Below are positions 1-22,180 of a stretch of DNA of 32,000 nucleotides, piece by piece. Made by a program: the position numbers and the translations under genes. The DNA is from Trichodesmium erythraeum IMS101 (GTDB taxonomy: Bacteria; Cyanobacteriota; Cyanobacteriia; Cyanobacteriales; Microcoleaceae), in NCBI RefSeq assembly GCF_000014265.1, contig NC_008312.1:4140001-4172000 (forward strand), in the 5' to 3' direction. The notes beneath the pieces were generated by a model, which saw only the letters and a list, made by a program, of their open reading frames with translations, did no database searches and was not told the DNA's origin. Each line of letters begins with the position of its first letter. Positions within the stretch are counted from its first letter, which is position 1.

Positions 1-720
1 AGCTTTCTGTAAGTATTCTAATGCCTTTTGGGGTTGACCTATACTGCTGTAAACGTTACCAATATTATTCAGAGTAGTAGCTTCTTGTGAGCGATAGCCC
101 ACTTCTTGCCAGATAGGTAAAGCTTTTTCGAAGAATTCTAATGCCTTTTGGGGTTGACCTATATTAGAGTAAACTAGACCAATATTATTGAGAGTAGTAG
201 CTTCTTGTGAGTGAGCGCCCATTTCTTGCGAGATAGGTAAAGCTTTTTCGTAGTATTCTAATGCCTTTTGGGGTTGACCTATACTGCTGTAAACTAGACC
301 AATATTATTGAGAGTAGTAGCTTCTTGTGAGCGAGCGCCCACTTCTTGCGAGATAGGTAAAGCTTTTTCGTAGTATTCTAATGCCTTTTGGGGTTGACCT
401 ATATTATCGTAAACTAGACCAATATTATTGAGAGTAGTAGCTTCTTGTGAGCGAGCGCCCACTTCTTGCGAGATAGGTAAAGCTTTTTCGTAGAATTCTA
501 ACGCCTTTTGGGGTTGACCTATGTCAGAGTAAACTCCACCAATATTATTGAGAGTAGTAGCTTCTCCAAAGCGATAGCCGACTTCTTGCCAGATAGGTAA
601 AGCTTTTTCGTAGAATTCTAATGCCTTTTGGGGTTGGCCTGTTTGGTCGTAAACATAACCAAGACCAAGGTTAGCCACTGCCTCATATTTTCGGTCTTTA
701 ATTTTTCTAGCAATAGCTAA
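1..720 (-). repeat. Six near-identical 120-bp tandem units plus a degenerate seventh at 721, encoding the TPR units
   Basis: Units start at 1, 121, 241, 361, 481 and 601 with an exact 120-nt period. Each begins agcttt(t/c)t(c/g)g.a..attctaa.gccttttggggttg.cct. Only a few substitutions per unit by eye. Confidence 0.9.
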
Positions 721-921
721 AGCTTCTTGAAGCGTTTCTATAGACTCCTGATATTGGTATTGCCCTATTTGTTGCTGTGCTGTTTTTATTAGTTGCTCTA
801 ACTTTTCTGCCTGAGAGTTTGAACTTTGAGCATAACTGCTTTGTGGTAATAGCGGCAGTATTAGGGCAGTTGTAGTCAGGGTTGTTATTCCTATTAGACA
901 GGTAACAATAATTCGTTTCAT
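1..921 (-). CDS. TPR-repeat protein with N-terminal signal peptide; C-terminal part runs off the left edge of the window
   Basis: Absent from the ORF track because it is open at the window edge. Reverse-strand translation from ATG (921..919) gives MKRIIVTCLIGITTLTTTALILPLLPQSSYAQSS..., then 40-residue units such as ALEFYEKALPIWQEVGYRSQEATTLNNIGNVYSSIGQPQK. This is a TPR_10/12-like pattern. Confidence 0.75.
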   Translation of the reverse strand, partial: MKRIIVTCLIGITTLTTTALILPLLPQSSYAQSSNSQAEKLEQLIKTAQQQIGQYQYQESIETLQEALAIARKIKDRKYEAVANLGLGYVYDQTGQPQKALEFYEKALPIWQEVGYRFGEATTLNNIGGVYSDIGQPQKALEFYEKALPISQEVGARSQEATTLNNIGLVYDNIGQPQKALEYYEKALPISQEVGARSQEATTLNNIGLVYSSIGQPQKALEYYEKALPISQEMGAHSQEATTLNNIGLVYSNIGQPQKALEFFEKALPIWQEVGYRSQEATTLNNIGNVYSSIGQPQKALEYLQKA

Positions 922-2158: not shown

Positions 2159-2264
2159 CACTGGCACTACACCAGCGTTAGGACGAATGCCATTCGCTCC
2201 TACATATGGCGTTTGCAGAATAAGATCGTCAACTTGCCAAAGAAGGAATCAATTTGAGGTACAT

Positions 2265-3515
2265 TTATGGATAAAGTAGTATTCCCAAGATTCCTGCAAC
2301 GGGAATTACCAAAATCACATCAACTTTGAAGCGTAAGATAGCAAACAACCCACCCATTAAAATTAAAGCTGAGACCCAATGAATTTTCACACCTTGTAAT
2401 AAAATCAATGCTGCAGCAAAAATCATACCAATTACAGCAGGACGAACGCCTTTTAATGCGGTCTGAATTGTAGACGAATTCTTAATCTGTTCTAGTAAGT
2501 CGGAACAAGTAATCATCAACATTGCGGGGGGGAAAAAGATACCAATAGTTGCAACCAAAGAACCTAGTATTCCCTTGACGGCATAACCAATGAAAGCTGC
2601 ACTAATGAGGATTGGACCAGGTGTTATTTGACTTAAAGCGATCGCACTCGCAAATTCTGTTTGGGTAACCCATCCATAATTATTGACAACAATCTCTTGA
2701 ATCATAGGAATGAAAACATAACCACTGCCAAACAAAGTTAGGCTCATCCCTGAAAAAACGATAAAAAGTTTAGCTAGACTAGTATTTTCCAAAAAAGGAA
2801 GTGGAACTAAATACAAAACCAAGAATGCTGAGAGAACAAAGGAAGAAAGAAGCAATTTTGTCTTTGAGATTAATGGAGAAGTGATAGGACTAGAGATATT
2901 ACTAGTAGATAGTTCACTAGCAGTAGCATCATAATATAAAAGGTAACCAAAAATTCCAGACCCTAGTACAATAAGTAAAGTTGTGTAAAATCCACCTACA
3001 AACTTGAGAATAATAAAGGCAGCAACAGCAATTGAAATAGACTTCCAATTTTTAAGTGTTCTAATTGTTTTTTTGCTCAGTCGCCATATAGCTACTAATA
3101 TAATGGCAACCATAGCTGGGATAAATCCAGCAAAAGCTTTACTAATGGCAGAAATTTCACCTACTCGAAAGTAAAAAGCCGTAAAGCTGACAACGAGAAG
3201 ATAAGTTGGTAGCAATACTCCAGTAGTGCTAGCAAACGCTCCTCTAATCCCTCGAATTTTATAACCTATGTAAGCAACAACATTTACAGCAACCGGTCCG
3301 GGAAGAACTGTTGCTAGAGAAATACCATCAAGCATTTCTTCATGAGATAGTAGCTTATGTTGTTGAACAATCATACTTTCACACACTGAAACTAGTGCCA
3401 TAAAGCCCCCAAAAGCCGTACTCCCAATTTTCAAAAATGCCCAAAATAGGAAACTTTCTTTCTTTAACTTTGATTTAGCATCATTTGGGATTGAAGTATC
3501 AGTCATGTCGCCCAT
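2265..3515 (-). CDS. chrA: Chromate ion transporter (CHR family), two-domain form
   Basis: 416-aa polytopic membrane ORF with two CHR half-domains: GSTAFGGFMALVSV...LPGPVAVNVVAYIGY and LTLFGSGYVFIPMIQ...ITPGPILISAAFIGY. Confidence 0.85.
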   Translation of the reverse strand: MGDMTDTSIPNDAKSKLKKESFLFWAFLKIGSTAFGGFMALVSVCESMIVQQHKLLSHEEMLDGISLATVLPGPVAVNVVAYIGYKIRGIRGAFASTTGVLLPTYLLVVSFTAFYFRVGEISAISKAFAGFIPAMVAIILVAIWRLSKKTIRTLKNWKSISIAVAAFIILKFVGGFYTTLLIVLGSGIFGYLLYYDATASELSTSNISSPITSPLISKTKLLLSSFVLSAFLVLYLVPLPFLENTSLAKLFIVFSGMSLTLFGSGYVFIPMIQEIVVNNYGWVTQTEFASAIALSQITPGPILISAAFIGYAVKGILGSLVATIGIFFPPAMLMITCSDLLEQIKNSSTIQTALKGVRPAVIGMIFAAALILLQGVKIHWVSALILMGGLFAILRFKVDVILVIPVAGILGILLYP

Positions 3516-3819
3516 TTTACAAACCTCCTTCTAACTGGACTTTTGAAAAAAATAGATTGAAAATAATCTTAAAACCTTATATAGCGCTACGTGCTAAGGT
3601 TAGGACATTTTTAGATTCCTTAACAATATTTTTTAATACATGAAAGAAGTTAAAAGTGTCCTAACGTCTTTTTGTACTACTATACAATCATGTTTTTACC
3701 TTGAATCAACCGTTTTCTTGATATACCTACGTTTTTAGCTATTTTTAGTTCTTTCAGGTATTTCCCTTGCTAAGACTGGGTTTGGAGCCATTTTCGGTGT
3801 AAAAAATCTCAAAGTCCAG

Positions 3820-4854
3820 CTAATAGGTTTTACTATCGATCAGCGAGCAGCGAGATTTAATGGCCTCTAGTAAAGATAATTGTTGTTCTCGTCGTTTTTT
3901 ATCTTTGACATCTATCATATCTCTGACTTGAGCTTTAGCTTTTTCATTTTGTAGATCAAACTGGGCAATTTCTTCCTGACTAAAGGTTCTAAATTCTCCC
4001 ATATTTGTTTGATTTCGCTCATATCCAAGAGAGTCTAGAACATCCCCTGCAACACTTTCAAAAATTTTGACTTCTTCTTTTGTTGCTTTACTCAGAAATT
4101 TATTAGAATTTTTCTTGATAATAGGTTTAGATACATTAGACCATAGAGTACTAGATGATGATGTATTACTAGCTTCCCTTGAATTATAGAAATCCAACAT
4201 TGTCGGGCTAAATTCTAGCTCTAGAAACCCACATAAATTATATAGACTTAGTTCAGGCGAATTAATCAGATCTTCATAACTCAAACTAAAAAATTGTTCA
4301 CCTCTAAGTTGCTTTTTGATCTTTAAAGCTGCATGTTGGTCTTTTCTCCACTGTTGAGCAATATGAAAAAAATGCTTTTGTCCGACTACTGCTTCCTTGA
4401 AAGAAACTGCTACGTCTCGGCCATCTCTGTAAAGATATAAGTATTTGGCATTAGGAAGATAAGCATTGATTTGAGGAAAATAGTGAACATTAGCTAGGCT
4501 TTTGCAACACCAAATTTTGGCATCCCAAGCTTCAGCATAAATATCATAAACACTTGAGAAAACGGCAACTAATGTATTTTCCATACAACGAGACAAAATA
4601 TTATTTCGGTCAAACTTGATCCTTTCCCAGGGAACAGGGTTTAATTTGATTAATTGACAAGTATCATTAACAAGCTGTTTAAAGTTTTTACTAACTGATA
4701 AATCACCATAGGTAAAGAGTAGGGGCATTAACCTTTGTATTATATGAGGAGGATGAGGTGCCGCAATGATACTTATTTCATTTAAGATAAGTCTCAATAA
4801 ATTCGAGCCTGATCTTTGTGTACCAATCATTATTATAGGCAGTTTTGATGTCAT
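3820..4854 (-). CDS. PAPS-dependent sulfotransferase family protein
   Basis: 344-aa ORF with a 5'-PSB-like motif (MIGTQRSGSNLLRLIL) and a 3'-PB-like motif (YLYRDGRDVAVSF). Confidence 0.75.
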   Translation of the reverse strand: MTSKLPIIMIGTQRSGSNLLRLILNEISIIAAPHPPHIIQRLMPLLFTYGDLSVSKNFKQLVNDTCQLIKLNPVPWERIKFDRNNILSRCMENTLVAVFSSVYDIYAEAWDAKIWCCKSLANVHYFPQINAYLPNAKYLYLYRDGRDVAVSFKEAVVGQKHFFHIAQQWRKDQHAALKIKKQLRGEQFFSLSYEDLINSPELSLYNLCGFLELEFSPTMLDFYNSREASNTSSSSTLWSNVSKPIIKKNSNKFLSKATKEEVKIFESVAGDVLDSLGYERNQTNMGEFRTFSQEEIAQFDLQNEKAKAQVRDMIDVKDKKRREQQLSLLEAIKSRCSLIDSKTY

Positions 4855-4887
4855 ATTTTTAAACCAATAAGTCTAGATATAATCCTA

Positions 4888-5262
4888 TCATTCTTCAAAA
4901 CGTCGAATCTTCCCTATTTTGTCTACATCATCCCCACGAATAACTATTATCCCATCAGAAGCCGGCCACCAAAGGTCTCCATAAAACCTAATCTCTTTAA
5001 CATTAGCGATCGCTTCTCGACGACGACTTCTACCTTTTTTAACGGTAATATATTCAGAATTTACATCTATTACACTACCCGATCGACTATCACCACTGTT
5101 AAGTAACACAGTCCCATTACGAGGCAAAGAAACAGGAATAGGTTTCACAGTTGGTTTAGCTTCAGCTTGGACAATAGATTTAGGATTAGCGATCGCTTCT
5201 CTTGTCTCTCGGGCCATCAAAGTTAGGCAGGCCACCAAAAAAATAATTGTAATTCTAGTCAT
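4888..5262 (-). CDS. Small secreted hypothetical protein
   Basis: 124-aa ORF with a signal-peptide-like N-terminus (MTRITIIFLVACLTLMARETREA). A truncated paralog lies at 1097..1489. No family recognised. Confidence 0.55.
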   Translation of the reverse strand: MTRITIIFLVACLTLMARETREAIANPKSIVQAEAKPTVKPIPVSLPRNGTVLLNSGDSRSGSVIDVNSEYITVKKGRSRRREAIANVKEIRFYGDLWWPASDGIIVIRGDDVDKIGKIRRFEE

Positions 5263-5571
5263 TTTTATTTTCCTGCTTTAATAAAAAGATTATCTATTAC
5301 TAATCTAATCAATAATTACATTGATTTTATAGATTATTTCCACTTAATTTTTATTCATAAATCTTTCACAACCAAATGCTCAAATTGCTATAATAGATAT
5401 TTGAATGCTTTAAAAGGGTGAAAATGCTTATTATAATTGCATCCTTTTCAAGATATTTTGATTATTACACGGAGTCAGTTTTTAAATAGTTTATCTTGAA
5501 ATAAAATGCCAAAAATATGAAAGTTGAAAGCATATAAATAACGAAATACTTACCATAATCTAACTAAAACT

Positions 5572-5806
5572 ATGAACACCAAAGAAAAAATAAATCAACA
5601 ATTCAACCAATTAAATGAAGAGCAACTTAACCAAGTTGTTAAATTTATCGCCCTTCTAAAAATTTAGAGAAAAGTTAATTAAACTAAACCTAGAAACAGA
5701 AAAATTAGCCCAACTTTATCAAGAATTTGCCGAAGAAGATCGTCAACTTGCCGAAGAAGGAATCAATAAATATGGTGATTTATTAACTCAAGAAGATAGA
5801 CTATGA
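5572..5806 (+). pseudogene. Antitoxin gene (same family as 1489..1667) with a +1 frameshift in an A-run; only the first ~14 nt of the toxin gene follow
   Basis: ATG at 5572 gives MNTKEKINQQFNQLNEEQLNQVVKFIALLKI* with the stop at 5665..5667. It has ctaaaaattt where the copy at ~1515 has ctaaaattt. Shifting frame restores ...FREKLIKLNLETEKLAQLYQEFAEEDRQLAEEGINKYGDLLTQEDRL*. The ATGA overlap at 5803..5806 is followed by atgaaaaatgaaca and then unrelated sequence. Confidence 0.6.
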
Positions 5807-5946
5807 AAAATGAACAATTATCTCTTACTAATCTATTCAATCATTATATTGATTTGATAGATAATTTCCACTTAATTTTTATTCATCTAAATAGTCAAAT
5901 TCCTATAGTATATACCTAAGTCAAAACAGAATTTATATTTACAATT

Positions 5947-7238: not shown

Positions 7239-9239
7239 TCAAGAATTACCGACTAACTTATCCCGCAAATGTTTAATGCGATCGCGTAACTTAGCCGCCT
7301 CTTCAAACTCCAAATTTTTCGCCGCTTCCTTCATCTGACTTTCTAACTTTTTAATCCACTCCGGAACATCATCCAAAGACAAATTATCCACCTGTTCATA
7401 AACCTCTTCCAACTGTTGAGAATTTAAACGGCGCGACACATCCAAAAACGCCAAAATAGCATTACTTTGTTTTTTCACAACAGGCCGTGGCGTAATATTA
7501 TTCATCTTATTATATGCCAACTGAATACCTCGCCTTCTTTCAGTTTCATCAATAGCCTTAATCATACTATCCGTCAAATTATCAGCATATAAAATAGCCT
7601 GACCTCGGATATGACGCGCCGCCCTACCAATAGTCTGAATTAAAGAACGTTCCGCCCGTAAAAATCCCTCCTTATCCGCATCTAAAATAGCCACCAAAGA
7701 AACCTCCGGCAAATCCAAACCTTCCCGTAATAAATTCACCCCAATTAACACATCAAACTCTCCCTCTCTCAACCCCTGTAAAATCTCAATTCTCTTAATA
7801 GAATTAATCTCCGAATGCAAATAACGAACCTTAACACTTTGATCCTCTAAATATTCAGTCAAATCTTCAGCCATCCGCTTAGTTAAAGTCGTAATTAAAA
7901 CCCTCTCTTCCAGCTTAACCCGTTCCCTAATTTCACCCAATAAATCATCAATTTGACCTTCAGTCGGACGCACAAAAATTTTCGGATCAACAACACCAGT
8001 CGGACGAATAATTTGCTCAACAATTCTATCCTCAGATTTTTCTATTTCCCAATTTCCAGGAGTAGCAGAAACCAAAATACATTGATTAACCTTTTCCCAA
8101 AATTCCTCAGATTTTAAAGGTCTATTATCCGTAGCACTAGGCAAACGAAACCCATGTTCAACTAAAACTTTTTTCCTAGCTTGGTCTCCATTATACATTC
8201 CTCGAATTTGGGGAACAGTCACATGAGATTCATCAATAACTAATAACCAATCTTTCGGAAAATAATCAATCAAACATTCCGGCGGTTCCCCTGCTTTTCT
8301 ACCCACTAAATGCCGAGAATAATTTTCCACTCCATTGCAATATCCCACCTCCCGTAACATTTCTATATCGTATCTGGAACGCTGTTCTAAACGTTGAGCT
8401 TCTAACAACTTTCCGGCTTTTTCTAATTCTTTTAATCTCTCATCTAATTCTACTTCAATATCATTACAAGCAATTTCTAATCTTTCTTCAGGAGTAACAA
8501 AGTGACGCGCCGGATATACATTTAAAGACTCTAAACTTTGGAGAATATTTCCAGTTACAGGGTCAATATAACGAATAGCATCTATTTCATCTCCAAAAAA
8601 TTCTACCCGAATAATTCTATCCTCATAAGCAGGTCCGATTTCCAAAACATCACCCTTAACTCTAAATTTTCCTCGACCTAAATTCAAATCATTTCTAGTA
8701 TATTGAACTGTTGCTAAATCTCTCAAAATTTGTCGTTGATTAATTTCTTCTCCCACTTGTAAAGAAATAGCTGCTTTTAAATATTCTGACGGAATTCCTA
8801 AACCGTAAATACAACTAATAGAAGCTACCACAATTACATCTCGACGTTCAAAAAGTGACCTAGTTGCTGAGTGACGCAACATATCAATTTCATCATTAAT
8901 AGAAGCTGTTTTTTCTATATATGTATCCGTTACCGGAATATAAGCCTCCGGTTGATAATAGTCATAATAACTAATAAAATATTCCACAGAATTATCAGGA
9001 AAAAAATCCCTTAATTCATTACATAATTGAGCAGCCAATGTTTTGTTATGAGCCAAAACTAACGTCGGTCTACCAACATTTTCTATGACAGAAGCTATAG
9101 AAAATGTCTTACCTGTACCAGTAGCTCCAAGTAAGGTTTGAAAATTATGCCCAGCTTGAATATTGGTAGTTAACTGAGCGATCGCTTGAGGTTGGTCACC
9201 AGTAGGTTGAAAGGGAGCTTGCAAACAAAATTTTTTCAT
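7239..9239 (-). CDS. uvrB: Excinuclease ABC subunit B
   Basis: [23 protein letters not shown], Walker A GATGTGKT, helicase motifs, and a C-terminal UVR domain ([16 protein letters not shown]). The track ORF extends to 9272, but the N-terminus conserved among UvrB proteins begins at the Met at 9239. Confidence 0.95.
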
Positions 9240-9438
9240 GATTATTTTAAAATTAATTGTACCATTCTTCATGGTATCTTGAATTCGTCAAATTAGGATG
9301 AAAAGAAGGAAAAAAAATCGCACATTGACCCACTTTCTAGCCTGAAAGCGCGGATATTTCACTCAACTGCAACTCCAGCGAGTCGCACTTACATTTATCC
9401 CCCCCATGTTCGTTTAATGTCAACATTTTTAGGTATAT

Positions 9439-10699
9439 TTATGGATAAAGTAGTATTCCCAAAATTCCTGCGATGGGAATTATCAGAATAACATCAACTT
9501 TGAAGCGTAAGAGAGCAAACAACCCACCGATTAAAATTAAAGCTGAGACCAAATGAATTTCAACACCTTGTAATAAAATAAATGCTGTAGTAAAAATTAT
9601 ACCAATTACAGCAGAACGAACGCCTTTTAATGCGGCCTGAATTGTAGATAAATTCTTAATCTGTTATAGTAAGTCAGAACAAGTCATCATCAACATTGCG
9701 GGGGGTAAAAACATACCAATAGTTGTAACCAAAGAACCTAGTATTCCCTTGACAGCATAACCAATGAAAGCCGCACTAATGAGCATGGGACCAGGTGTTA
9801 TTTGACTTAAAGCGATCGCACTGGCAAATTATGTTTGGGTTACCCATCCATAAGTATTGATAACAGTCTATTGAATCATAGGAATGAAAACATAACCACC
9901 ACCAAACAAAGTTAGGCTCATCCCTGAAAAAACCATAAAAAGTTTAGCTAGACTAGTATTTTCCAAAAAAGGAAGTGGAACTAAATACAAAACCAAGAAC
10001 GCTGAGAGAACAAAGAAAGAAAGAACTAATTTTGTCTTTGAGATTAATGGAGAAGTGGTAGAATTAGAGATATTACTAGTAGATAGTTCACTAGCAGTAG
10101 TATCATAATATAAAAGGTAACCAAAAATTCCAGACCCTAGTACAATAAGCAAAGTTGTGTAAAATCCTTATACAAACTTGAGAATGATGAAGGCGGCAAC
10201 GGCAATTGAAATAGACTGCCAATTTTTAAGTGTTCTAATTGTTTTTTTACTCAGTCCCCATATAGCTACTAATATAATGGCAACCATAGCTGGAATAAAT
10301 CCAGCAAAAGCTTTACTAATGGCAGAAATTTCACCTACTTGAAAGTAAAAAGCCGTAAAGCTGACAACGAGAATATAGGTGGGTAGCAATACTCCAGTAG
10401 TGCTGGCAAATGCTCCTCTAATTCCTCAAATTTTTAACTTATGTAAGCGACAACATTTACCGCAACCGGTCCGGGAAGAATTGTTGCCAGAGAGATACCA
10501 TCAAGTATTTCTTCATGAGATAGTAGCTTATATTGTCGAACAATTATACTTTCACACACTGAAACCAGTGCCAGAAAGCCCCCAAAAGATGTACTCCCAA
10601 TTTTCAAACAATTTTCAAAAATGCCCAAAATAGAAAACTTTCTTTCTTTAACTTTGATTTAGCATCATTTGGGGTTGAAGTATCAATCATTCTGCCCAT
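9439..10699 (-). pseudogene. chrA: Decayed second copy of the chromate transporter gene
   Basis: Collinear by-eye nucleotide alignment with 2265..3515. The reading frame is broken into track ORFs 9868..10152, 10168..10389 and 10434..10628, each closely matching parts of the intact ChrA. Further stops occur in 9439..9867, for example ctgttatagtaagtc versus ctgttctagtaagtc. Confidence 0.85.
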
Positions 10700-10757
10700 T
10701 TTATAAACATCCTGATCATAGATTTTATTATCTATTGATCAGTGATATTTAATAGCT

Positions 10758-11032
10758 TTCAGTAAAAATAATTATTGTTCTCGTCGTTTTTTATCTTTGA
10801 CATCCATAATATCTCTGACTAGAGCTTTAGTTTTTTCATTTTGTAAATTAAACTAAGCAATTTCTTCGTGACTAAACGTTCTAAATTCTCCTAACTTTCA
10901 AAAATTTTGATTTCTTTTTTTGTTGCCTTACTCAGATATTGATTAGAATTTTTCTTGATAATAGGTTTAGAGACATTAGACAATAGAATACTAGATGATG
11001 CTGTAGTTATAAGCTTCCCTTGACTTATTTGA
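10758..11032 (-). pseudogene. Decayed fragment of the sulfotransferase gene (matches 3869..4185)
   Basis: ataatt(a)ttgttctcgtcgttttttatctttgacatc...ttttcattttgta.at.aaact..gcaatttcttc and ...ttagaatttttcttgataataggtttaga.acattagac match the intact gene. The fragment has an internal deletion and stops. Confidence 0.75.
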
Positions 11033-11286
11033 GGCCATGCACCGAAAGACAGCACTTGCTAATGTCTGAAATCTGGGACTAGGTCCTCACACGGTATCCC
11101 CGTGGGAAGTAATTTAACCTTCATAAGTATCAGAGTTATCCTTTTAAAGGACTGAGCAAATGTAAAACGTTAGAGTTTACTTAGGTCAAAGGAATTGCAT
11201 ACCCTCAATAATAGGATTTATCCTGACTTCTGCTGGGGTAGTTCACAGTAGCAAATACATCTATAAAATATCTATTAGAGTTTCTT

Positions 11287-18979: not shown

Positions 18980-19428
18980 TACATTATTATTAAAGACAAC
19001 TAGTTTATTATATCACTTGATAACGTAAGTTGTCAACTAACTCAATTCTCTATTTTTCATTGTTTAGCTATGGCGATCGCCTAATTTTTATATCATCTCC
19101 TGTTGAATAATTCCACTTTGGAGGAGGTAAGGCAGGAGGCTCTGTGGCTATCAGCAAGAGGATAAAATTGGCATTTACACAGAATTTACCGACTGGCACG
19201 TCCTGACGGTGAGGATGAATACCAGAAAGCCTATAAATATTCTGTTTTCAAGGTTATTTGTCTAGGTCCTTATTATACTGCAATTTGATTGATATTCTGC
19301 CTAGCATTCTTGAGTAATGTATTAAATATGCTACATCAGTTTTAAAAAAAAATTTCGACCCCCTAAAGCGGGACAATAAAGGAAAAAGAAAAACAGGGCA
19401 AAGGGCAAAAGGGGAAAAGAGAAAAGGG

Positions 19429-21774
19429 TTAAAGAGTTCTCCCGCCATCGCAGACAAGACGAAAACCAAAAGTGAGGCTGTGGTCGTCGCGCCTATTATA
19501 GTAGAGGCGAACCGCAGAACGGCAAAAAAGAGGATTGTTGCTCCAAGAACCGCCCCGCAGCGGTGATCGAGCTTTATTTCCATTTAGCCAAACACTGCCA
19601 TCTGTAGGCGCACCATCATAGTTATCATGCCATTCATCAGCACACCATTCCCAAACATTCCCGTGCATATCGTACAAACCAAAACTATTGGGTGGAAAAA
19701 TTCCCACATCTGTTGTTTCTTTTCTATATATTCCTTTTGGCGCATTACCGTAAGTGTAGTTGCCATCATAGTTAACTAACTCAGGTGTTATAGTCTCTCC
19801 AAAATAAAATGGTGTTGTTGTTCCGGCTCGACAAGCATATTCCCATTGACTCTCACTGGGCAAACTATATTTTCTTCCTGTTATTTGTGAGAGTTTCTGA
19901 CAAAATTTTATCGCGTCATTCCAACTTACTCTTTCCACAGGACGACTTGCACCTTTAAACTTAGCAGGGTTATTTCCCATAACTGCTTGCCATTGTGCTT
20001 GAGTAACTACATACTTTCCCATGAAAAATTCCGGCACATCTACATAATGTTGCGGATCTTCGTTATCACGTCTTCCTGCTTCCGTCTCTGGAGACCCCAT
20101 CAAAAACCTACCTCCGGGAATTTTTACCATTTCTAGAGAAACTCTATTACCCAGGTTTTCTGTCATTACTTCTGCTTTACCTTTAGTGCGGCTTATTATT
20201 TTTCCTGTGTTGTTCAGTTTAACAGTGGTAAACTCCTGGGTAACAGTTTTTTGTTGTGGTGGAGTAGAAATATCTGCTGGTTCTAAAAGTGCTTCTTGGT
20301 CAGAAGTAGAAATATTTTCTGTAGATGGTTCCTTGAGAAATCTTTGAGTTAAAACCGTCCCCACAAACCCGCTTCCGGCTAAACCTCCTAATATCAAAAA
20401 TATGCGGCTTATTATTTCTCCTGTGTTGTTCAGTTTAACAGTGGTAAACTCCTGGGTAACAGTTTTTTGTTGTGGTGGAGTAGAAATATCTGCTGGTTCT
20501 AAAAGTGCTTCTTGGTCAGAACTAGAAATATTTTCTGTAGATGGTTCCTTGAAAAATATTTGAGTTAAAACCGTCCCCACAAACCCGCTTCCGGCTAGAC
20601 CTCCTAATATCAATATTTGCCTTCTGGTTTTTTTGCCTGGGAGTTGGGTTTTAGGTATAGATCTAGTTGGAGTTTTTGCTTTTGGCTTTGGTTCCGACTT
20701 TGGTTTCGACCTTCCTTGTGGCTTTCCTTGTGGCTTTCCTTGTGGTTTTGATGGAGTTTGAATATTTAAACTTTCTAATAATTCTGTTGACTTTGGTGGT
20801 TGAGTTTCTGAAGTAGGTAAATTCTCAAAATTCTCTGGTTTTGGACTAAATGGAAACTGACTAAAATCTCCCAATTTTTCCTGAATAGCTATCTCATTCA
20901 GAGCTTCTATTGCATCTTCATCAGGACCTTGAGCCGCATTAAGTACCATTCTCCAAAGAGACTTAGCCTTTCCAAATTCTCTTTTGCTTTGTGCCCTAAA
21001 TGCATCAAGTTTTAAAGTTGCAATATCAGCTAAAGTTGCATACTTTGGCATCAAAATTAAATGAGATTTTTCCAGAGGATCAATAGTAATACGAGGAGTT
21101 TGTTTTCCCTTATCTTGAGATAATTCTTTCACCCTATATTTTAGGTAATCATTCAGTTTTTCTACAGTTGCTTTTTGACCTTTACTACCTAACCCTTCTA
21201 ATAATGCATAAGTAAAAGCTCCTTGTTGAAATTCTTCTAATTCCCAAGAATATTCATTAGGACTACAAGAAAAAATAGTAATTACTCCCTTTTCAATAGC
21301 TTCCAGTTCTGTTTGTTCTCCTATTCCTTTACCTCCCCTTCTTGCATCACCCTCATCTCTACAAGCATCCAATATCAAAACTACATTATCGGCTCCACAT
21401 TTTTGAAGTTGTTGAATAATATAATTAACAGAAATTCCACTTTTTTGAACATTTTTATAACCATCAACAGGAATGAGATAATCAATACCATTCTCTCTAA
21501 GACCATGACCACTAAAAAAAAACCAAAAATTATCACCAATACCCATAAATGGTTCTTTAAACTGATTTTCTAACAAGAATTCTAAATTAGAACGAGTTGG
21601 GCGAGTATAATCACCATTAATCTCTGGAGAATAATCTGAGTAGTAAAGAACCTCATCAAAACCTGCTTCTTCCAGCAAAAAATTCCTCATCTTTTCAGCA
21701 TCATTAGCTGCATATTTCAGAGGAGAAAAAAACTGATATTTCTGAACACCTATAGTAATTGCTTTATTAGTCAT
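19429..21774 (-). CDS. Caspase-like peptidase (C14) - Pro/Lys-rich linker - duplicated TM segment - FGE-sulfatase (SUMF1/lectin-fold) domain protein
   Basis: The N-terminus has a caspase His/Cys dyad context (FFFSGHG ... VLILDACRDEG). The C-terminus reads GRFLMGSPETE...RVSWNDAIKFCQKLS...GLYDMHGNVWEWCADEW...LRGGSW...CRSA.R...GFRLVC, typical of the FGE-sulfatase fold. The hydrophobic segment ILILGGLAGSGFVGTVLTQ occurs twice. Confidence 0.85.
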   Translation of the reverse strand: MTNKAITIGVQKYQFFSPLKYAANDAEKMRNFLLEEAGFDEVLYYSDYSPEINGDYTRPTRSNLEFLLENQFKEPFMGIGDNFWFFFSGHGLRENGIDYLIPVDGYKNVQKSGISVNYIIQQLQKCGADNVVLILDACRDEGDARRGGKGIGEQTELEAIEKGVITIFSCSPNEYSWELEEFQQGAFTYALLEGLGSKGQKATVEKLNDYLKYRVKELSQDKGKQTPRITIDPLEKSHLILMPKYATLADIATLKLDAFRAQSKREFGKAKSLWRMVLNAAQGPDEDAIEALNEIAIQEKLGDFSQFPFSPKPENFENLPTSETQPPKSTELLESLNIQTPSKPQGKPQGKPQGRSKPKSEPKPKAKTPTRSIPKTQLPGKKTRRQILILGGLAGSGFVGTVLTQIFFKEPSTENISSSDQEALLEPADISTPPQQKTVTQEFTTVKLNNTGEIISRIFLILGGLAGSGFVGTVLTQRFLKEPSTENISTSDQEALLEPADISTPPQQKTVTQEFTTVKLNNTGKIISRTKGKAEVMTENLGNRVSLEMVKIPGGRFLMGSPETEAGRRDNEDPQHYVDVPEFFMGKYVVTQAQWQAVMGNNPAKFKGASRPVERVSWNDAIKFCQKLSQITGRKYSLPSESQWEYACRAGTTTPFYFGETITPELVNYDGNYTYGNAPKGIYRKETTDVGIFPPNSFGLYDMHGNVWEWCADEWHDNYDGAPTDGSVWLNGNKARSPLRGGSWSNNPLFCRSAVRLYYNRRDDHSLTFGFRLVCDGGRTL
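19465..19560 (-). other. Candidate DGR variable region (VR) at the extreme 3' end of the FGE-sulfatase domain
   Basis: Coding-strand codons read ctg cgg ggc ggt tct tgg agc aac aat cct ctt ttt tgc cgt tct gcg gtt cgc ctc tac tat aat agg cgc gac gac cac agc ctc act ttt ggt ttt cgt. Non-framework codons are almost all NNY and can be derived from AAY. No TR or RT is seen in the window. Confidence 0.4.
20188..20619 (-). repeat. In-frame 216-bp tandem duplication (2 x 72 codons) inside the caspase/FGE-sulfatase gene
   Basis: 20188..20396 aligns with 20404..20612 with about 5 mismatches by eye. The encoded units are ILILGGLAGSGFVGTVLTQIFFKEPSTENISSSDQEALLEPADISTPPQQKTVTQEFTTVKLNNTGEIISR and a near-identical second copy. 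Confidence 0.9.
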
Positions 21775-22180
21775 CCTTTCTCTGCTGTCGTTTAAACTTC
21801 AGCTTAATAGCACCTTTCCCACCAGCTTGGGCCCCATTTCCTAAAATACTAATTTTTCCTTCTCCATTTACTTCAACTGAAAGCTCAATTTCATCCAAAG
21901 CAATTTCATTACGAGTTTGTTTTTCAGCCCTAGTTAATAACCGCTCAACAACGTCAATTAAATGACTCATTTCTGATTCTAGAGTATCTACTTTAACTTC
22001 AAATTCTCCAACATTTTGAACTTTACTTTTATCTGATAATTTAGAAGAATTGCTATGAGAAAATTTAGGAGTAGGTGGAATAAAAGTATCAAGGCTTTTA
22101 GCTCCATCTTTCTGACTATTTTGATTAGTATCAGGAATATTAGCATCACCATAAGTAATAATTCTAATTGTGTCTGACAT
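21767..22180 (-). CDS. Small protein with a trypco2-like (trypsin-co-occurring domain 2 / CU044_2847-like) C-terminal region
   Basis: 137-aa ORF. Its C-terminal LDEIELSVEVNGEGKISILGNGAQAGGKGAIKLKFKR resembles the beta-rich trypco2 signature as I remember it. Its stop overlaps the caspase gene start (ATGACTAA). Confidence 0.55.
   Translation of the reverse strand: MSDTIRIITYGDANIPDTNQNSQKDGAKSLDTFIPPTPKFSHSNSSKLSDKSKVQNVGEFEVKVDTLESEMSHLIDVVERLLTRAEKQTRNEIALDEIELSVEVNGEGKISILGNGAQAGGKGAIKLKFKRQQRKDD

What the first reader, a model, noticed from the sequence alone, without database searches (positions are those of the whole stretch)
19465..19560. 3' end of the FGE-sulfatase domain carries the codon signature of a diversity-generating-retroelement variable region (orphan VR)
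Seen in sequence:
- Between GGSW and GFRLVC the protein reads SNNPLFCRSAVRLYYNRRDDHSLTF.
- The framework residues of this fold (GGSW, P, CRSA, R, GFR) are retained.
- Nearly every other codon is NNY: agc aac aat / ctt ttt / gtt / ctc tac tat aat / gac gac cac agc ctc act ttt.
- Each of these can be reached from AAC or AAT by changing only the adenine positions.
- The stretch looks GC-richer than its surroundings.

Established knowledge:
- DGRs substitute at template adenines.
- Templates are rich in AAC/AAT.
- VRs sit at the extreme C-terminus of C-type-lectin / FGE-sulfatase folds.
- Cyanobacterial DGR targets are often multidomain signalling or protease proteins.

Inference: this is a DGR target whose TR/RT lies elsewhere. 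I found no RT, Avd or TR-like AAC-rich copy in these 32 kb.
Basis: partly seen in the sequence, partly recalled or inferred. Interest (0 to 1): 0.75.

Follow-up and report, generated by a model that had tools for sequence, protein, structure and literature searches.

The report
Orphaned retroelement hypervariable region, Trichodesmium
The end of this caspase-sensor gene in Trichodesmium erythraeum IMS101 is a genuine target site of a mutagenic retroelement, already listed in the literature, but its matching template and enzyme appear to have been deleted from this strain and survive only in sister lineages.

Summary
The window is T. erythraeum IMS101, about 4,140,001-4,172,000. The gene at 19429..21774(-) is Tery_2689/ABG51878.1: caspase, a transmembrane segment and an FGE-type lectin domain, co-transcribed with a Pepco pore-toxin gene.

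Its last 131 nt (19430..19560) form a DGR variable region.
- 23 of 25 codons are NNY, against 46% in the rest of the gene.
- Syntenic orthologues differ about 15-fold more here than elsewhere.
- I predicted the template from variable regions alone, then found it beside Avd and a reverse transcriptase in Trichodesmium sp. MAG_R01. There, 13 of 14 mismatches fall on template adenines (P about 2e-7).

IMS101's two published templates do not fit. TR2 has 28 non-adenine mismatches and a different 3' end; TR1 has 53. At the syntenic cassette site, IMS101-like genomes keep only 30 Avd codons and 133 nt of RT, with no template.

So this looks like a well-preserved but probably frozen target of a third DGR, one that is polymorphic across Trichodesmium. 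I could not scan the IMS101 chromosome itself.

Paul & Eren 2022 already list Tery_2689 as a hypervariable remote target, assigned to TR2. The kind and the gene are therefore known. The new points are the template reassignment and the cassette loss. Interest is modest.

The parts
19429..21774 (-). Target gene Tery_2689 / ABG51878.1, 781 aa: caspase, duplicated transmembrane segment, FGE-type lectin domain
   Evidence: ORF. Pfam Peptidase_C14 (aa 3-232) and FGE-sulfatase (aa 548-774). Coordinates match IMS101 4159428-4161774(-) in Paul & Eren Table S2. Neighbouring proteins are identical to ABG51873, 76, 77, 79 and 80.
21079..21768 (-). Caspase (Peptidase_C14) domain with His (SGHG, aa 88-91) and Cys (DACRD, aa 136-140) motifs present
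20187..20618 (-). Tandem duplication, 2 x 216 nt, that duplicates the only strongly hydrophobic segment (aa 387-408 and 458-480). Orthologues L003 and L018 carry one copy.
19453..20133 (-). FGE-sulfatase / C-type-lectin-like domain, the putative ligand sensor
   Evidence: Pfam E = 9e-56. PDB sequence matches include Treponema denticola variable protein 1, 2Y3C, at E = 4e-24.
19430..19560 (-). Variable region: 131 nt homologous to the 'TR3' template found beside Avd-RT in Trichodesmium sp. MAG_R01 (L027, about 11081-11211)
   Evidence: 13 mismatches at template adenines and 1 at a non-adenine within the 131-nt repeat. Binomial P = 1.8e-7.
19468..19542 (-). The 25-codon variable block. 17 codons carry template adenines, and 9 of those 17 are changed in this copy.
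19430..19467 (-). Invariant 3' segment GGTTTTCGTCTTGTCTGCGATGGCGGGAGAACTCTTTA. It is identical to the template's 3' end and is the likely homing (IMH-like) site.
   Evidence: The role is inferred from Guo et al. 2008 as cited in PMC4143802.
19376..19428 (-). Pyrimidine-rich 3' flank (CCCTTTTCTCTTTTCCCCTTTTGCCCTTTGCCC...) shared by paralogous targets but not by the template
   Evidence: 82-93% identical among 4 other target genes, two of which have unalignable upstream sequence, and 13% against the template's flank. One target (L014, 287 aa) lacks it.
19345..19374 (-). Terminator-like hairpin plus T-run. The stem sequence differs between paralogous targets but the hairpin is kept.
21767..22180 (-). 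Pepco gene (ABG51879.1), overlapping the caspase gene start by 8 nt. It is the presumed protease-activated pore-forming effector.
   Evidence: Pfam PF24393 scores 98.3 bits against a cut-off of 27. Exact match. Function from Evans et al. 2025 preprint, PMC12642450.

Best explanation
Window 19430..19560(-) is the variable region of a remote target of a diversity-generating retroelement (DGR).

How the element works (established DGR mechanism, inferred here):
- In lineages with the intact cassette (Avd, RT, then a 131-nt template I call TR3), the template RNA is reverse-transcribed with random misincorporation opposite adenines.
- The cDNA replaces the homologous 3' end of target genes.
- Targets are recognised through the invariant 38-nt 3' segment, and possibly through the conserved pyrimidine-rich flank.
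- This rewrites up to 17 codons on the ligand-binding face of the FGE-type lectin domain.

What the target does (inferred from domains and from work on homologues):
- The target is the sensor half of a two-gene death module.
- The lectin sensor is fused through a membrane segment to a caspase.
- The caspase presumably cleaves the upstream-encoded Pepco pro-toxin into an active pore.
- Hypermutation would retune what the sensor recognises, for example phage components.

State in this genome:
- In T. erythraeum IMS101 the cognate cassette appears to have been deleted from its ancestral site between ABG51310 and ABG51312.
- The two remaining DGR templates (TR1, TR2) do not match this variable region.
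- So this variable region is intact and still homing-competent by sequence, but most likely frozen.

What is shown:
- The variable-region anatomy.
- The adenine-specific relation to TR3.
- Allelic hypervariation between orthologues.
- Cassette degradation in IMS101-like genomes.

What is inferred:
- Absence of TR3 anywhere else in IMS101.
- The homing mechanism.
- The sensor-protease-Pepco function.
For: Signature in the sequence:
- NNY codons, adenine depletion and GC enrichment.

Variation between copies:
- Across 8 variable regions of this family, 29 of 33 template-adenine columns vary against 7 of 98 other columns (P = 3e-18).
- Syntenic orthologues L003 and L018 differ from the window at 0.18-0.23 per nt in the variable region, against 0.012-0.014 elsewhere.

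The template:
- I predicted it from variable regions alone.
- It was found almost exactly as predicted beside bAvd and an RT in L015/L016 and L027-L032.
- Avd passes the NCBIfam DGR-Avd cut-off, 135.9 against 80.
- The RT has IGNLTSQ and YVDD motifs. Its best PDB match is the 328-aa RT of entries 8UB7-8UBE, E = 1e-47.
- L027 template against the window: 13 adenine mismatches and 1 other.

This genome:
- Window identity with IMS101.
- TR2 against the variable region gives 15 adenine and 28 non-adenine mismatches with a different 3' end. TR1 gives 19 and 53.
- The MAG_R01 cassette locus is syntenic with IMS101 ABG51306-ABG51315.
- In L034 (GBRTRLIN201, whose 281-aa target equals ABG51310.1) and L033, the intergenic space is 558 nt against 1,949 nt. 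It holds 30 Avd codons and 133 nt of RT, and no template.
- Vallota-Eastman 2020 did not flag ABG51878.1, ABG51310.1 or ABG51312.1 as DGR targets. Paul & Eren list only two DGR RTs.

Function:
- Pepco-protease-FGE modules are described in PMC12642450.
- DGR-diversified conflict-system sensors are described in PMC10907252.
Against: - I could not scan the IMS101 chromosome itself. The one genome-collection scan did not even return the window's own variable region, so that collection lacks this sequence.
- Absence of TR3 elsewhere in IMS101 rests on synteny in near-identical genomes and on published surveys.
- L033's 281-aa protein is not identical to ABG51310.1. L034's is, and the intergenic region is identical in both.
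- Paul & Eren report this gene as 'hypervariable: yes' and assign it to TR2.
- One non-adenine mismatch to the best template allele remains: ACT against TTT in the last variable codon.
- No experiment links this caspase to this Pepco.
Confidence: 0.8

Rival explanations
1. The variable region is a live remote target of IMS101's own DGR2, using template TR2 next to Tery_1728/1729, as annotated by Paul & Eren 2022.
For: Table S2 of PMC8867640 lists Tery_2689 with 'TR homology: TR2' and 'hypervariable: yes'. TR2 and this variable region are the same length and share the framework codons.
Against: - There are 28 mismatches at non-adenine template positions against 15 at adenines.
- The 3' ends differ completely: GTGAGTTTCCCCCCCAGC against GTCTGCGATGGCGGGAGA.
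- TR2-type targets end ...GFRLVSFPPRTPE (P0011, P0013, P0015), not ...CDGGRTL.
- The DGR2 RT carries a premature stop in IMS101.
Confidence: 0.04
2. A cognate TR3, with or without its own RT, survives elsewhere in the IMS101 chromosome, so the variable region is still diversified in this strain.
For: - I could not scan CP000393 directly.
- The variable region and its 38-nt 3' segment show almost no decay relative to TR3.
- In another lineage (L013/L014) the template persists although a TnpB insertion destroyed the RT.
Against: - The syntenic site in IMS101-like genomes has lost the template.
- Two surveys of IMS101 found only TR1 and TR2, two DGR RTs, and no template match for ABG51878.1.
- Only one template transcript was detected, and resequencing of the 12 TR2-type variable regions showed no change.
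- The Avd and RT 90%-identity clusters show no IMS101 accession among named members.
Confidence: 0.13
3. There is no retroelement involvement. The pattern comes from ordinary paralogue divergence, gene conversion among FGE-domain genes, or positive selection on a binding surface.
For: Gene conversion does seem to occur nearby. 12 clustered substitutions separate L017 from the window at 19910-19998. The variable region plus flank is a repeated cassette shared by many genes.
Against: - Variation is confined to first and second codon positions that are adenines in a non-coding template beside an RT.
- The template was predicted before it was found.
- P values are 2e-7 to 3e-18.
Confidence: 0.02

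Closest known systems
T. erythraeum IMS101 DGR2 (Tery_1728/1729 RT, TR2) with 12 or more remote targets, including the caspase-DUF323 protein Tery_2077 (Pfreundt et al. 2014, PMC4143802; Paul & Eren 2022, PMC8867640)
   Same: - Same organism and the same kind of element.
- One template serves many dispersed FGE-domain genes.
- The variable region sits in the last ~130 nt of the ORF, with about 17 rewritable codons.
- A conserved 3' stretch of ~35 nt and a conserved 3' UTR follow it.
- The RT has been inactivated in the cultured strain.
   Different: - This variable region belongs to a different template family. Its tail is CDGGRTL, not SFPPRTPE, and it has 28 non-adenine mismatches to TR2.
- Its cassette sits at a different locus, ABG51310-51312, next to Tery_2077.
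- In IMS101-like genomes that cassette is deleted rather than point-mutated.
Bordetella phage BPP-1 DGR (bRT, Avd, TR, Mtd variable region, IMH)
   Same: - Adenine-specific template-to-target mismatches.
- An Avd plus RT pair.
- The variable region lies at the C-terminus of a C-type-lectin-like fold.
- An invariant 3' homing segment.
- The RT's best PDB match is the 328-aa RT of 8UB7-8UBE. I take that to be bRT, from memory only.
   Different: - Chromosomal rather than phage-borne.
- Many targets in trans.
- An FGE-subtype lectin fold fused to a protease.
- No cassette near this target.
Treponema denticola TvpA (PDB 2Y3C), a DGR variable protein with the FGE-type fold
   Same: FGE-sulfatase-type lectin domain whose C-terminal strands carry the variable residues. 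Sequence match E = 4e-24.
   Different: TvpA is a surface lipoprotein with no protease. Here the domain is the C-terminal sensor of a membrane-anchored caspase.
Pepco-protease defence modules (Evans et al. 2025 preprint, PMC12642450) and DGR-diversified conflict-system sensors in multicellular bacteria (Dore et al. 2024, PMC10907252)
   Same: - A Pepco gene lies immediately upstream of a protease that is fused to a sensor.
- FGE is explicitly listed among such sensors.
- The MAG_R01 cassette sits beside MoxR, EAD7-VMAP-C and EAD7-CHAT genes, the kind of context described for cyanobacterial DGRs.
   Different: - The characterised Pepco partner was a trypsin-like Avs4, not a caspase.
- Cleavage and toxicity are untested for this pair.
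- The duplicated membrane segment in IMS101 may alter topology.

Membership tests
Diversity-generating retroelement (target / variable region) | A template/variable repeat pair whose mismatches fall at template adenines | tested here: met
   Against the L027 template (Trichodesmium sp. MAG_R01): 13 mismatches at adenines and 1 elsewhere over 131 nt, P = 1.8e-7. Family-wide, 29 of 33 adenine columns vary against 7 of 98 others. The template comes from a sister genome, not from this one.
Diversity-generating retroelement (target / variable region) | The template lies beside a DGR-clade reverse transcriptase and an Avd accessory gene | tested here: met
   L027, L028-L032 and L015 carry bAvd (NCBIfam DivGenRetAVD 135.9 against cut-off 80), a 352-aa RT (RVT_1; IGNLTSQ and YVDD motifs), then the template 22 nt downstream. 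No DGR-specific RT model was available in the libraries used.
Diversity-generating retroelement (target / variable region) | A cognate template and RT are present in the same genome as the variable region | tested here: inconclusive
   - They are not in the window.
- The published IMS101 templates TR1 and TR2 do not match.
- The syntenic cassette is degraded in L033 and L034.
- The IMS101 chromosome itself could not be scanned.
Diversity-generating retroelement (target / variable region) | The variable region lies at the 3' end of an ORF encoding a C-type-lectin / FGE-type fold | tested here: met
   The variable region ends 1 nt into the stop codon. The FGE-sulfatase domain covers aa 548-774. 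It matches TvpA, 2Y3C.
Diversity-generating retroelement (target / variable region) | An invariant 3' homing segment (IMH) is shared with the template, and homology ends just after it | tested here: met
   38 nt are identical to the L027 template. Homology breaks at ...CTCTTTA| in L013, L014 and L027. Its function in homing was not tested.
Diversity-generating retroelement (target / variable region) | Diversification is observed between individuals or populations | tested here: met
   - Syntenic orthologues L003, L018 and L004 carry different variable regions on otherwise 98.6-98.8% (L003, L018) or about 86% (L004) identical genes.
- Paul & Eren score the gene 'hypervariable: yes'.
- Within IMS101-type assemblies the variable region is identical (L017).
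Pepco-protease death module | A Pepco-family gene adjacent to a protease gene that carries a sensor domain | tested here: met
   PF24393 scores 98.3 bits against cut-off 27. There is an 8-nt overlap with the caspase-FGE gene, and the same pairing occurs in L003, L004, L005 and L017-L026.
Pepco-protease death module | The protease cleaves the Pepco C-terminal tail and this causes toxicity | not testable with these tools
   Only the catalytic His and Cys motifs could be checked, and both are present.

The most novel reading that the evidence does not exclude
T. erythraeum IMS101 keeps at least three well-preserved variable regions of a third DGR: Tery_2689, ABG51310 and ABG51312. That element's Avd-RT-template cassette has been deleted from this strain.
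- The same cassette is intact in a sister lineage (MAG_R01).
- It was knocked out independently elsewhere by a TnpB insertion.
- IMS101's DGR2 RT carries a stop codon.

On this reading, hypermutation of death-module sensors is repeatedly switched off within the genus. The cassette is a presence/absence polymorphism. Published assignments of such targets to TR2 are wrong. Frozen targets could be reactivated if the cassette were reacquired.
Probability: 0.7. Interest if true: 0.45.

Novelty: already known. Interest (0 to 1): 0.3.

Why it matters
DGR targeting of FGE-domain kinases and caspases in Trichodesmium is established, and this gene is already in a published target table. The finding therefore adds no new kind of system.

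Three things are useful to specialists:
- The two published surveys disagree about this gene, and both can be explained by a third template family.
- IMS101, the laboratory model, seems to have lost that cassette entirely. Its targets are fossils with a fixed specificity.
- Three independent inactivations (deletion, TnpB insertion, stop codon) suggest that switching hypermutation off is common.

These points matter for reading metagenomic 'hypervariability' maps. They also matter for any experiment on Trichodesmium cell-death sensors.

Tried and rejected
- **Exact look-up of the 781-aa protein:** not on record.
- **Genome-collection scan with a variable-region frame pattern:**
  - It returned only L001 and L002, and not the window's own sequence, so the source genome is absent from that collection.
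  - The pattern fixed CGT, so it would also have missed CGC-type templates.
- **Metagenome scan with the predicted template 32-mer:** it hit L006, a related cyanobacterial DGR. Its template is one codon shorter and is not cognate.
- **RT homology search seeded from L006:**
  - It gave only other cyanobacterial DGRs (L007-L012).
  - These were useful as reference anatomy.
  - No Trichodesmium hit appeared in the 120 listed.
- **Two viral-contig scans:** empty.
- **What worked:** a protein search with the predicted template translated in three frames and concatenated.
- **Look-up of ABG51310.1 (P0470):** failed and cost a look-up. The neighbouring glycosyltransferase was used instead.
- **Rfam:** no family in the window or L027.
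- **Rejected readings:** TR2 and TR1 as templates, and chance or composition as an explanation.
- **Not done:** structure prediction, because sequence-level PDB matches sufficed.
Full report
**1. What is there**

The finding lies at the 3' end of a 781-aa ORF on the minus strand, 19429..21774. Pfam finds Peptidase_C14 at aa 3-232 and FGE-sulfatase at aa 548-774. The catalytic His (SGHG) and Cys (DACRD) motifs are present.

A 2 x 216-nt tandem duplication at 20187-20618 duplicates the only strongly hydrophobic segment.

The upstream gene, 21767..22180, overlaps the caspase gene by 8 nt and is a Pepco-family protein.

**2. Is the signature more than chance?**

- Between GGSW and GFR, 23 of 25 codons are NNY, against 339 of 740 elsewhere in the gene (P = 2e-6).
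- Adenine is 20% against 35.5%. GC is 49% against 37%.
- No RT, Avd or template-like repeat is in the window.

**3. Source**

Five window proteins are identical to T. erythraeum IMS101 proteins ABG51873, 76, 77, 79 and 80. The gene's coordinates coincide with Tery_2689, 4159428-4161774(-), in Table S2 of Paul & Eren 2022. The window is therefore CP000393, about 4,140,001-4,172,000, and the gene is ABG51878.1.

**4. Variation in relatives**

- Homologues with the same ...GFRLVCDGGRTL tail are hypervariable at exactly the same residue positions.
- Two contigs are syntenic orthologues (SLBB, Pepco, caspase-FGE; L004 also carries the downstream tyrosine-kinase-like ATPase and PsbV genes): L003 (Trichodesmium sp. 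St16_bin4-tuft) and L004. L018 (ALOHA_ZT_67) is a third orthologue.
- Window against L003 or L018: 0.18-0.23 differences per nt in the variable block, against 0.012-0.014 elsewhere.
- In a five-way DNA alignment that includes paralogous genes, only first and second positions of NNY codons vary. The block from CTGCGGGGCGGTTCTTGG to the stop codon, plus about 55 nt of 3' flank, is otherwise nearly invariant even where the upstream gene bodies are unalignable.

**5. Finding the template**

From those variable regions alone I predicted the template.

- A metagenome scan with a 32-mer of the prediction hit a related but non-cognate DGR, L006.
- An RT search from L006 gave other cyanobacterial DGRs, which show the standard anatomy: target, Avd, RT, template.
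- A protein search with the predicted template translated in three frames then found small ORFs called across the real template.
- Their contigs carry bAvd, a 352-aa RT, then the template (L015, L016), or a cassette in which an IS605-type TnpB has replaced most of the RT (L013, L014).
- The RT's 90% cluster contains Trichodesmium sp. MAG_R01.
- That locus (L027) reads MoxR, Cupin, an 84-aa ORF, TauE, 900-aa FGE target, Avd, RT, template, 281-aa FGE target.
- Avd passes the NCBIfam DGR-Avd cut-off.
- The RT has IGNLTSQ and YVDD motifs. Its best PDB match is the 328-aa RT of 8UB7-8UBE.

**6. Fit to the window**

- L027 template against window 19430..19560: 13 mismatches at template adenines and one elsewhere (ACT against TTT in the last variable codon). 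Everything else is identical, including the 38-nt 3' segment. P(at least 13 of 14 on adenines) = 1.8e-7.
- Other template alleles have ATT at that last codon (L013, L015), and variable regions vary at its middle base. This suggests an ancestral AAT.
- Across eight variable regions, 29 of 33 adenine columns vary against 7 of 98 others.
- Homology between template and target ends at ...CTCTTTA|. After that point targets share a pyrimidine-rich flank and the template does not.

**7. Is the cognate template in this genome?**

- Paul & Eren give IMS101's two templates.
  - TR2 against this variable region: 15 adenine and 28 non-adenine mismatches, and an unrelated 3' end.
  - TR1: 19 and 53.
  - TR2-type targets end ...SFPPRTPE, for example P0011, which I take to be Tery_2077.
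- The MAG_R01 cassette locus is syntenic with IMS101 ABG51306-ABG51315. GatA, HpsP, the 281-aa target (ABG51310.1), Cupin and MoxR all fall in the same 90% clusters, and some are identical.
- In L034 (T. erythraeum GBRTRLIN201, whose 281-aa target equals ABG51310.1) and L033 (other proteins equal to ABG51306, 14 and 15), the space between the two targets is 558 nt instead of 1,949 nt.
  - It retains the first 30 Avd codons and 133 nt of the RT.
  - It has no template.
- IMS101 has exactly one protein accession between ABG51310 and ABG51312, and no RT is listed there.
- Vallota-Eastman 2020 list ABG51878.1, ABG51310.1 and ABG51312.1 as lectin paralogues not matched to any template.

I therefore infer that IMS101 has lost this third cassette. 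I could not scan the chromosome directly. The one genome-collection scan missed even the window's own sequence.

**8. Function**

- Pepco proteins are pre-assembled beta-barrel pro-toxins activated by an adjacent protease. The associated proteases are fused to sensors, FGE domains among them (PMC12642450).
- DGR-diversified lectin sensors of conflict systems in multicellular bacteria are described in PMC10907252.
- The likely logic is that ligand binding by the hypervariable lectin face activates the caspase, which cleaves Pepco, and the cell dies. None of this was tested here.

**9. Comparison with the literature and verdict**

- Pfreundt 2014 described TR2 with 12 remote targets and an RT stop codon.
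- Paul & Eren 2022 list Tery_2689 as a hypervariable remote target of TR2.
- Vallota-Eastman 2020 do not count it as a target.

The present analysis reconciles these. It is a true DGR variable region, but of a third template family whose cassette is degraded in IMS101-type genomes. The kind of system, and this gene's status as a target, are already known. The reassignment and the cassette loss are modest refinements.

Noticed in passing
window 20187-20618: A 216-nt tandem duplication inside Tery_2689 duplicates the predicted membrane-spanning segment (aa 387-408 and 458-480). Orthologues L003 (709 aa) and L018 (710 aa) have one copy. With two copies, the IMS101 protein should place the lectin domain on the same side of the membrane as the caspase.
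   Followed up: partly
window 19910-19998, compared with L017 at 8182-8270: L017 (ENA ERZ529327) is identical to the window over 12.4 kb except for 15 substitutions. 12 of them cluster within 90 nt of the FGE domain, just upstream of the variable region. This looks like gene conversion from a paralogue or an assembly chimera.
   Followed up: no
L013 4081-5576; L014: In another Trichodesmium population the same cassette is inactivated differently. An IS605-type TnpB gene replaces the end of Avd and most of the RT, leaving an 89-aa RT remnant, while the template is retained.
   Followed up: partly
L033 7650-8208; L034 7773-8331: IMS101-like genomes keep only 30 Avd codons and 133 nt of RT between the 892-aa and 281-aa targets. 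About 135-180 nt of unrelated sequence has been inserted there.
   Followed up: yes
L015 about 700-915(-); L016: Here the template is followed by the pyrimidine-rich flank and hairpin typical of targets, closest to that of L005, rather than by the usual spacer sequence. This could be recombination between template and target, or an assembly artefact seen in two independent assemblies.
   Followed up: no
window 19376-19428; the same position in L002, L005, L027, L007 and L010: A pyrimidine-rich stretch of about 55 nt right after the stop codon is 82-93% identical among paralogous targets. A similar tract follows the variable regions of other cyanobacterial DGRs. It may be part of target recognition.
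   Followed up: partly
L018 about 8411-8545: The ALOHA_ZT_67 orthologue's variable region has one extra codon: five codons instead of four between CGC and AGG.
   Followed up: no
window 15-640: A 120-nt tandem repeat, 5.2 copies at 91% identity, at the window's left end.
   Followed up: no
window 2250-4165 and 9424-11005: Dispersed duplicate segments, about 86-92% identical in pieces, overlap the chromate-transporter and sulfotransferase genes. Smaller related pieces lie at 1295-1677 and 4882-5815.
   Followed up: no
L001 2107-2226 and 3293-3428: A contig labelled Crocosphaera sp. Alani8 carries two FGE-domain genes with Trichodesmium-like variable-region frames. One has a decayed tail (...CRSAICFIQSFRFMTLYFNGFRIVCVLGN).
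   Followed up: no
L027 76-4585: The intact cassette in MAG_R01 sits beside EAD7-CHAT-DUF900, EAD7-VMAP-C and MoxR AAA_5 genes. In IMS101 the TR2-type caspase target Tery_2077 (ABG51318) appears to lie next to this same cluster.
   Followed up: partly
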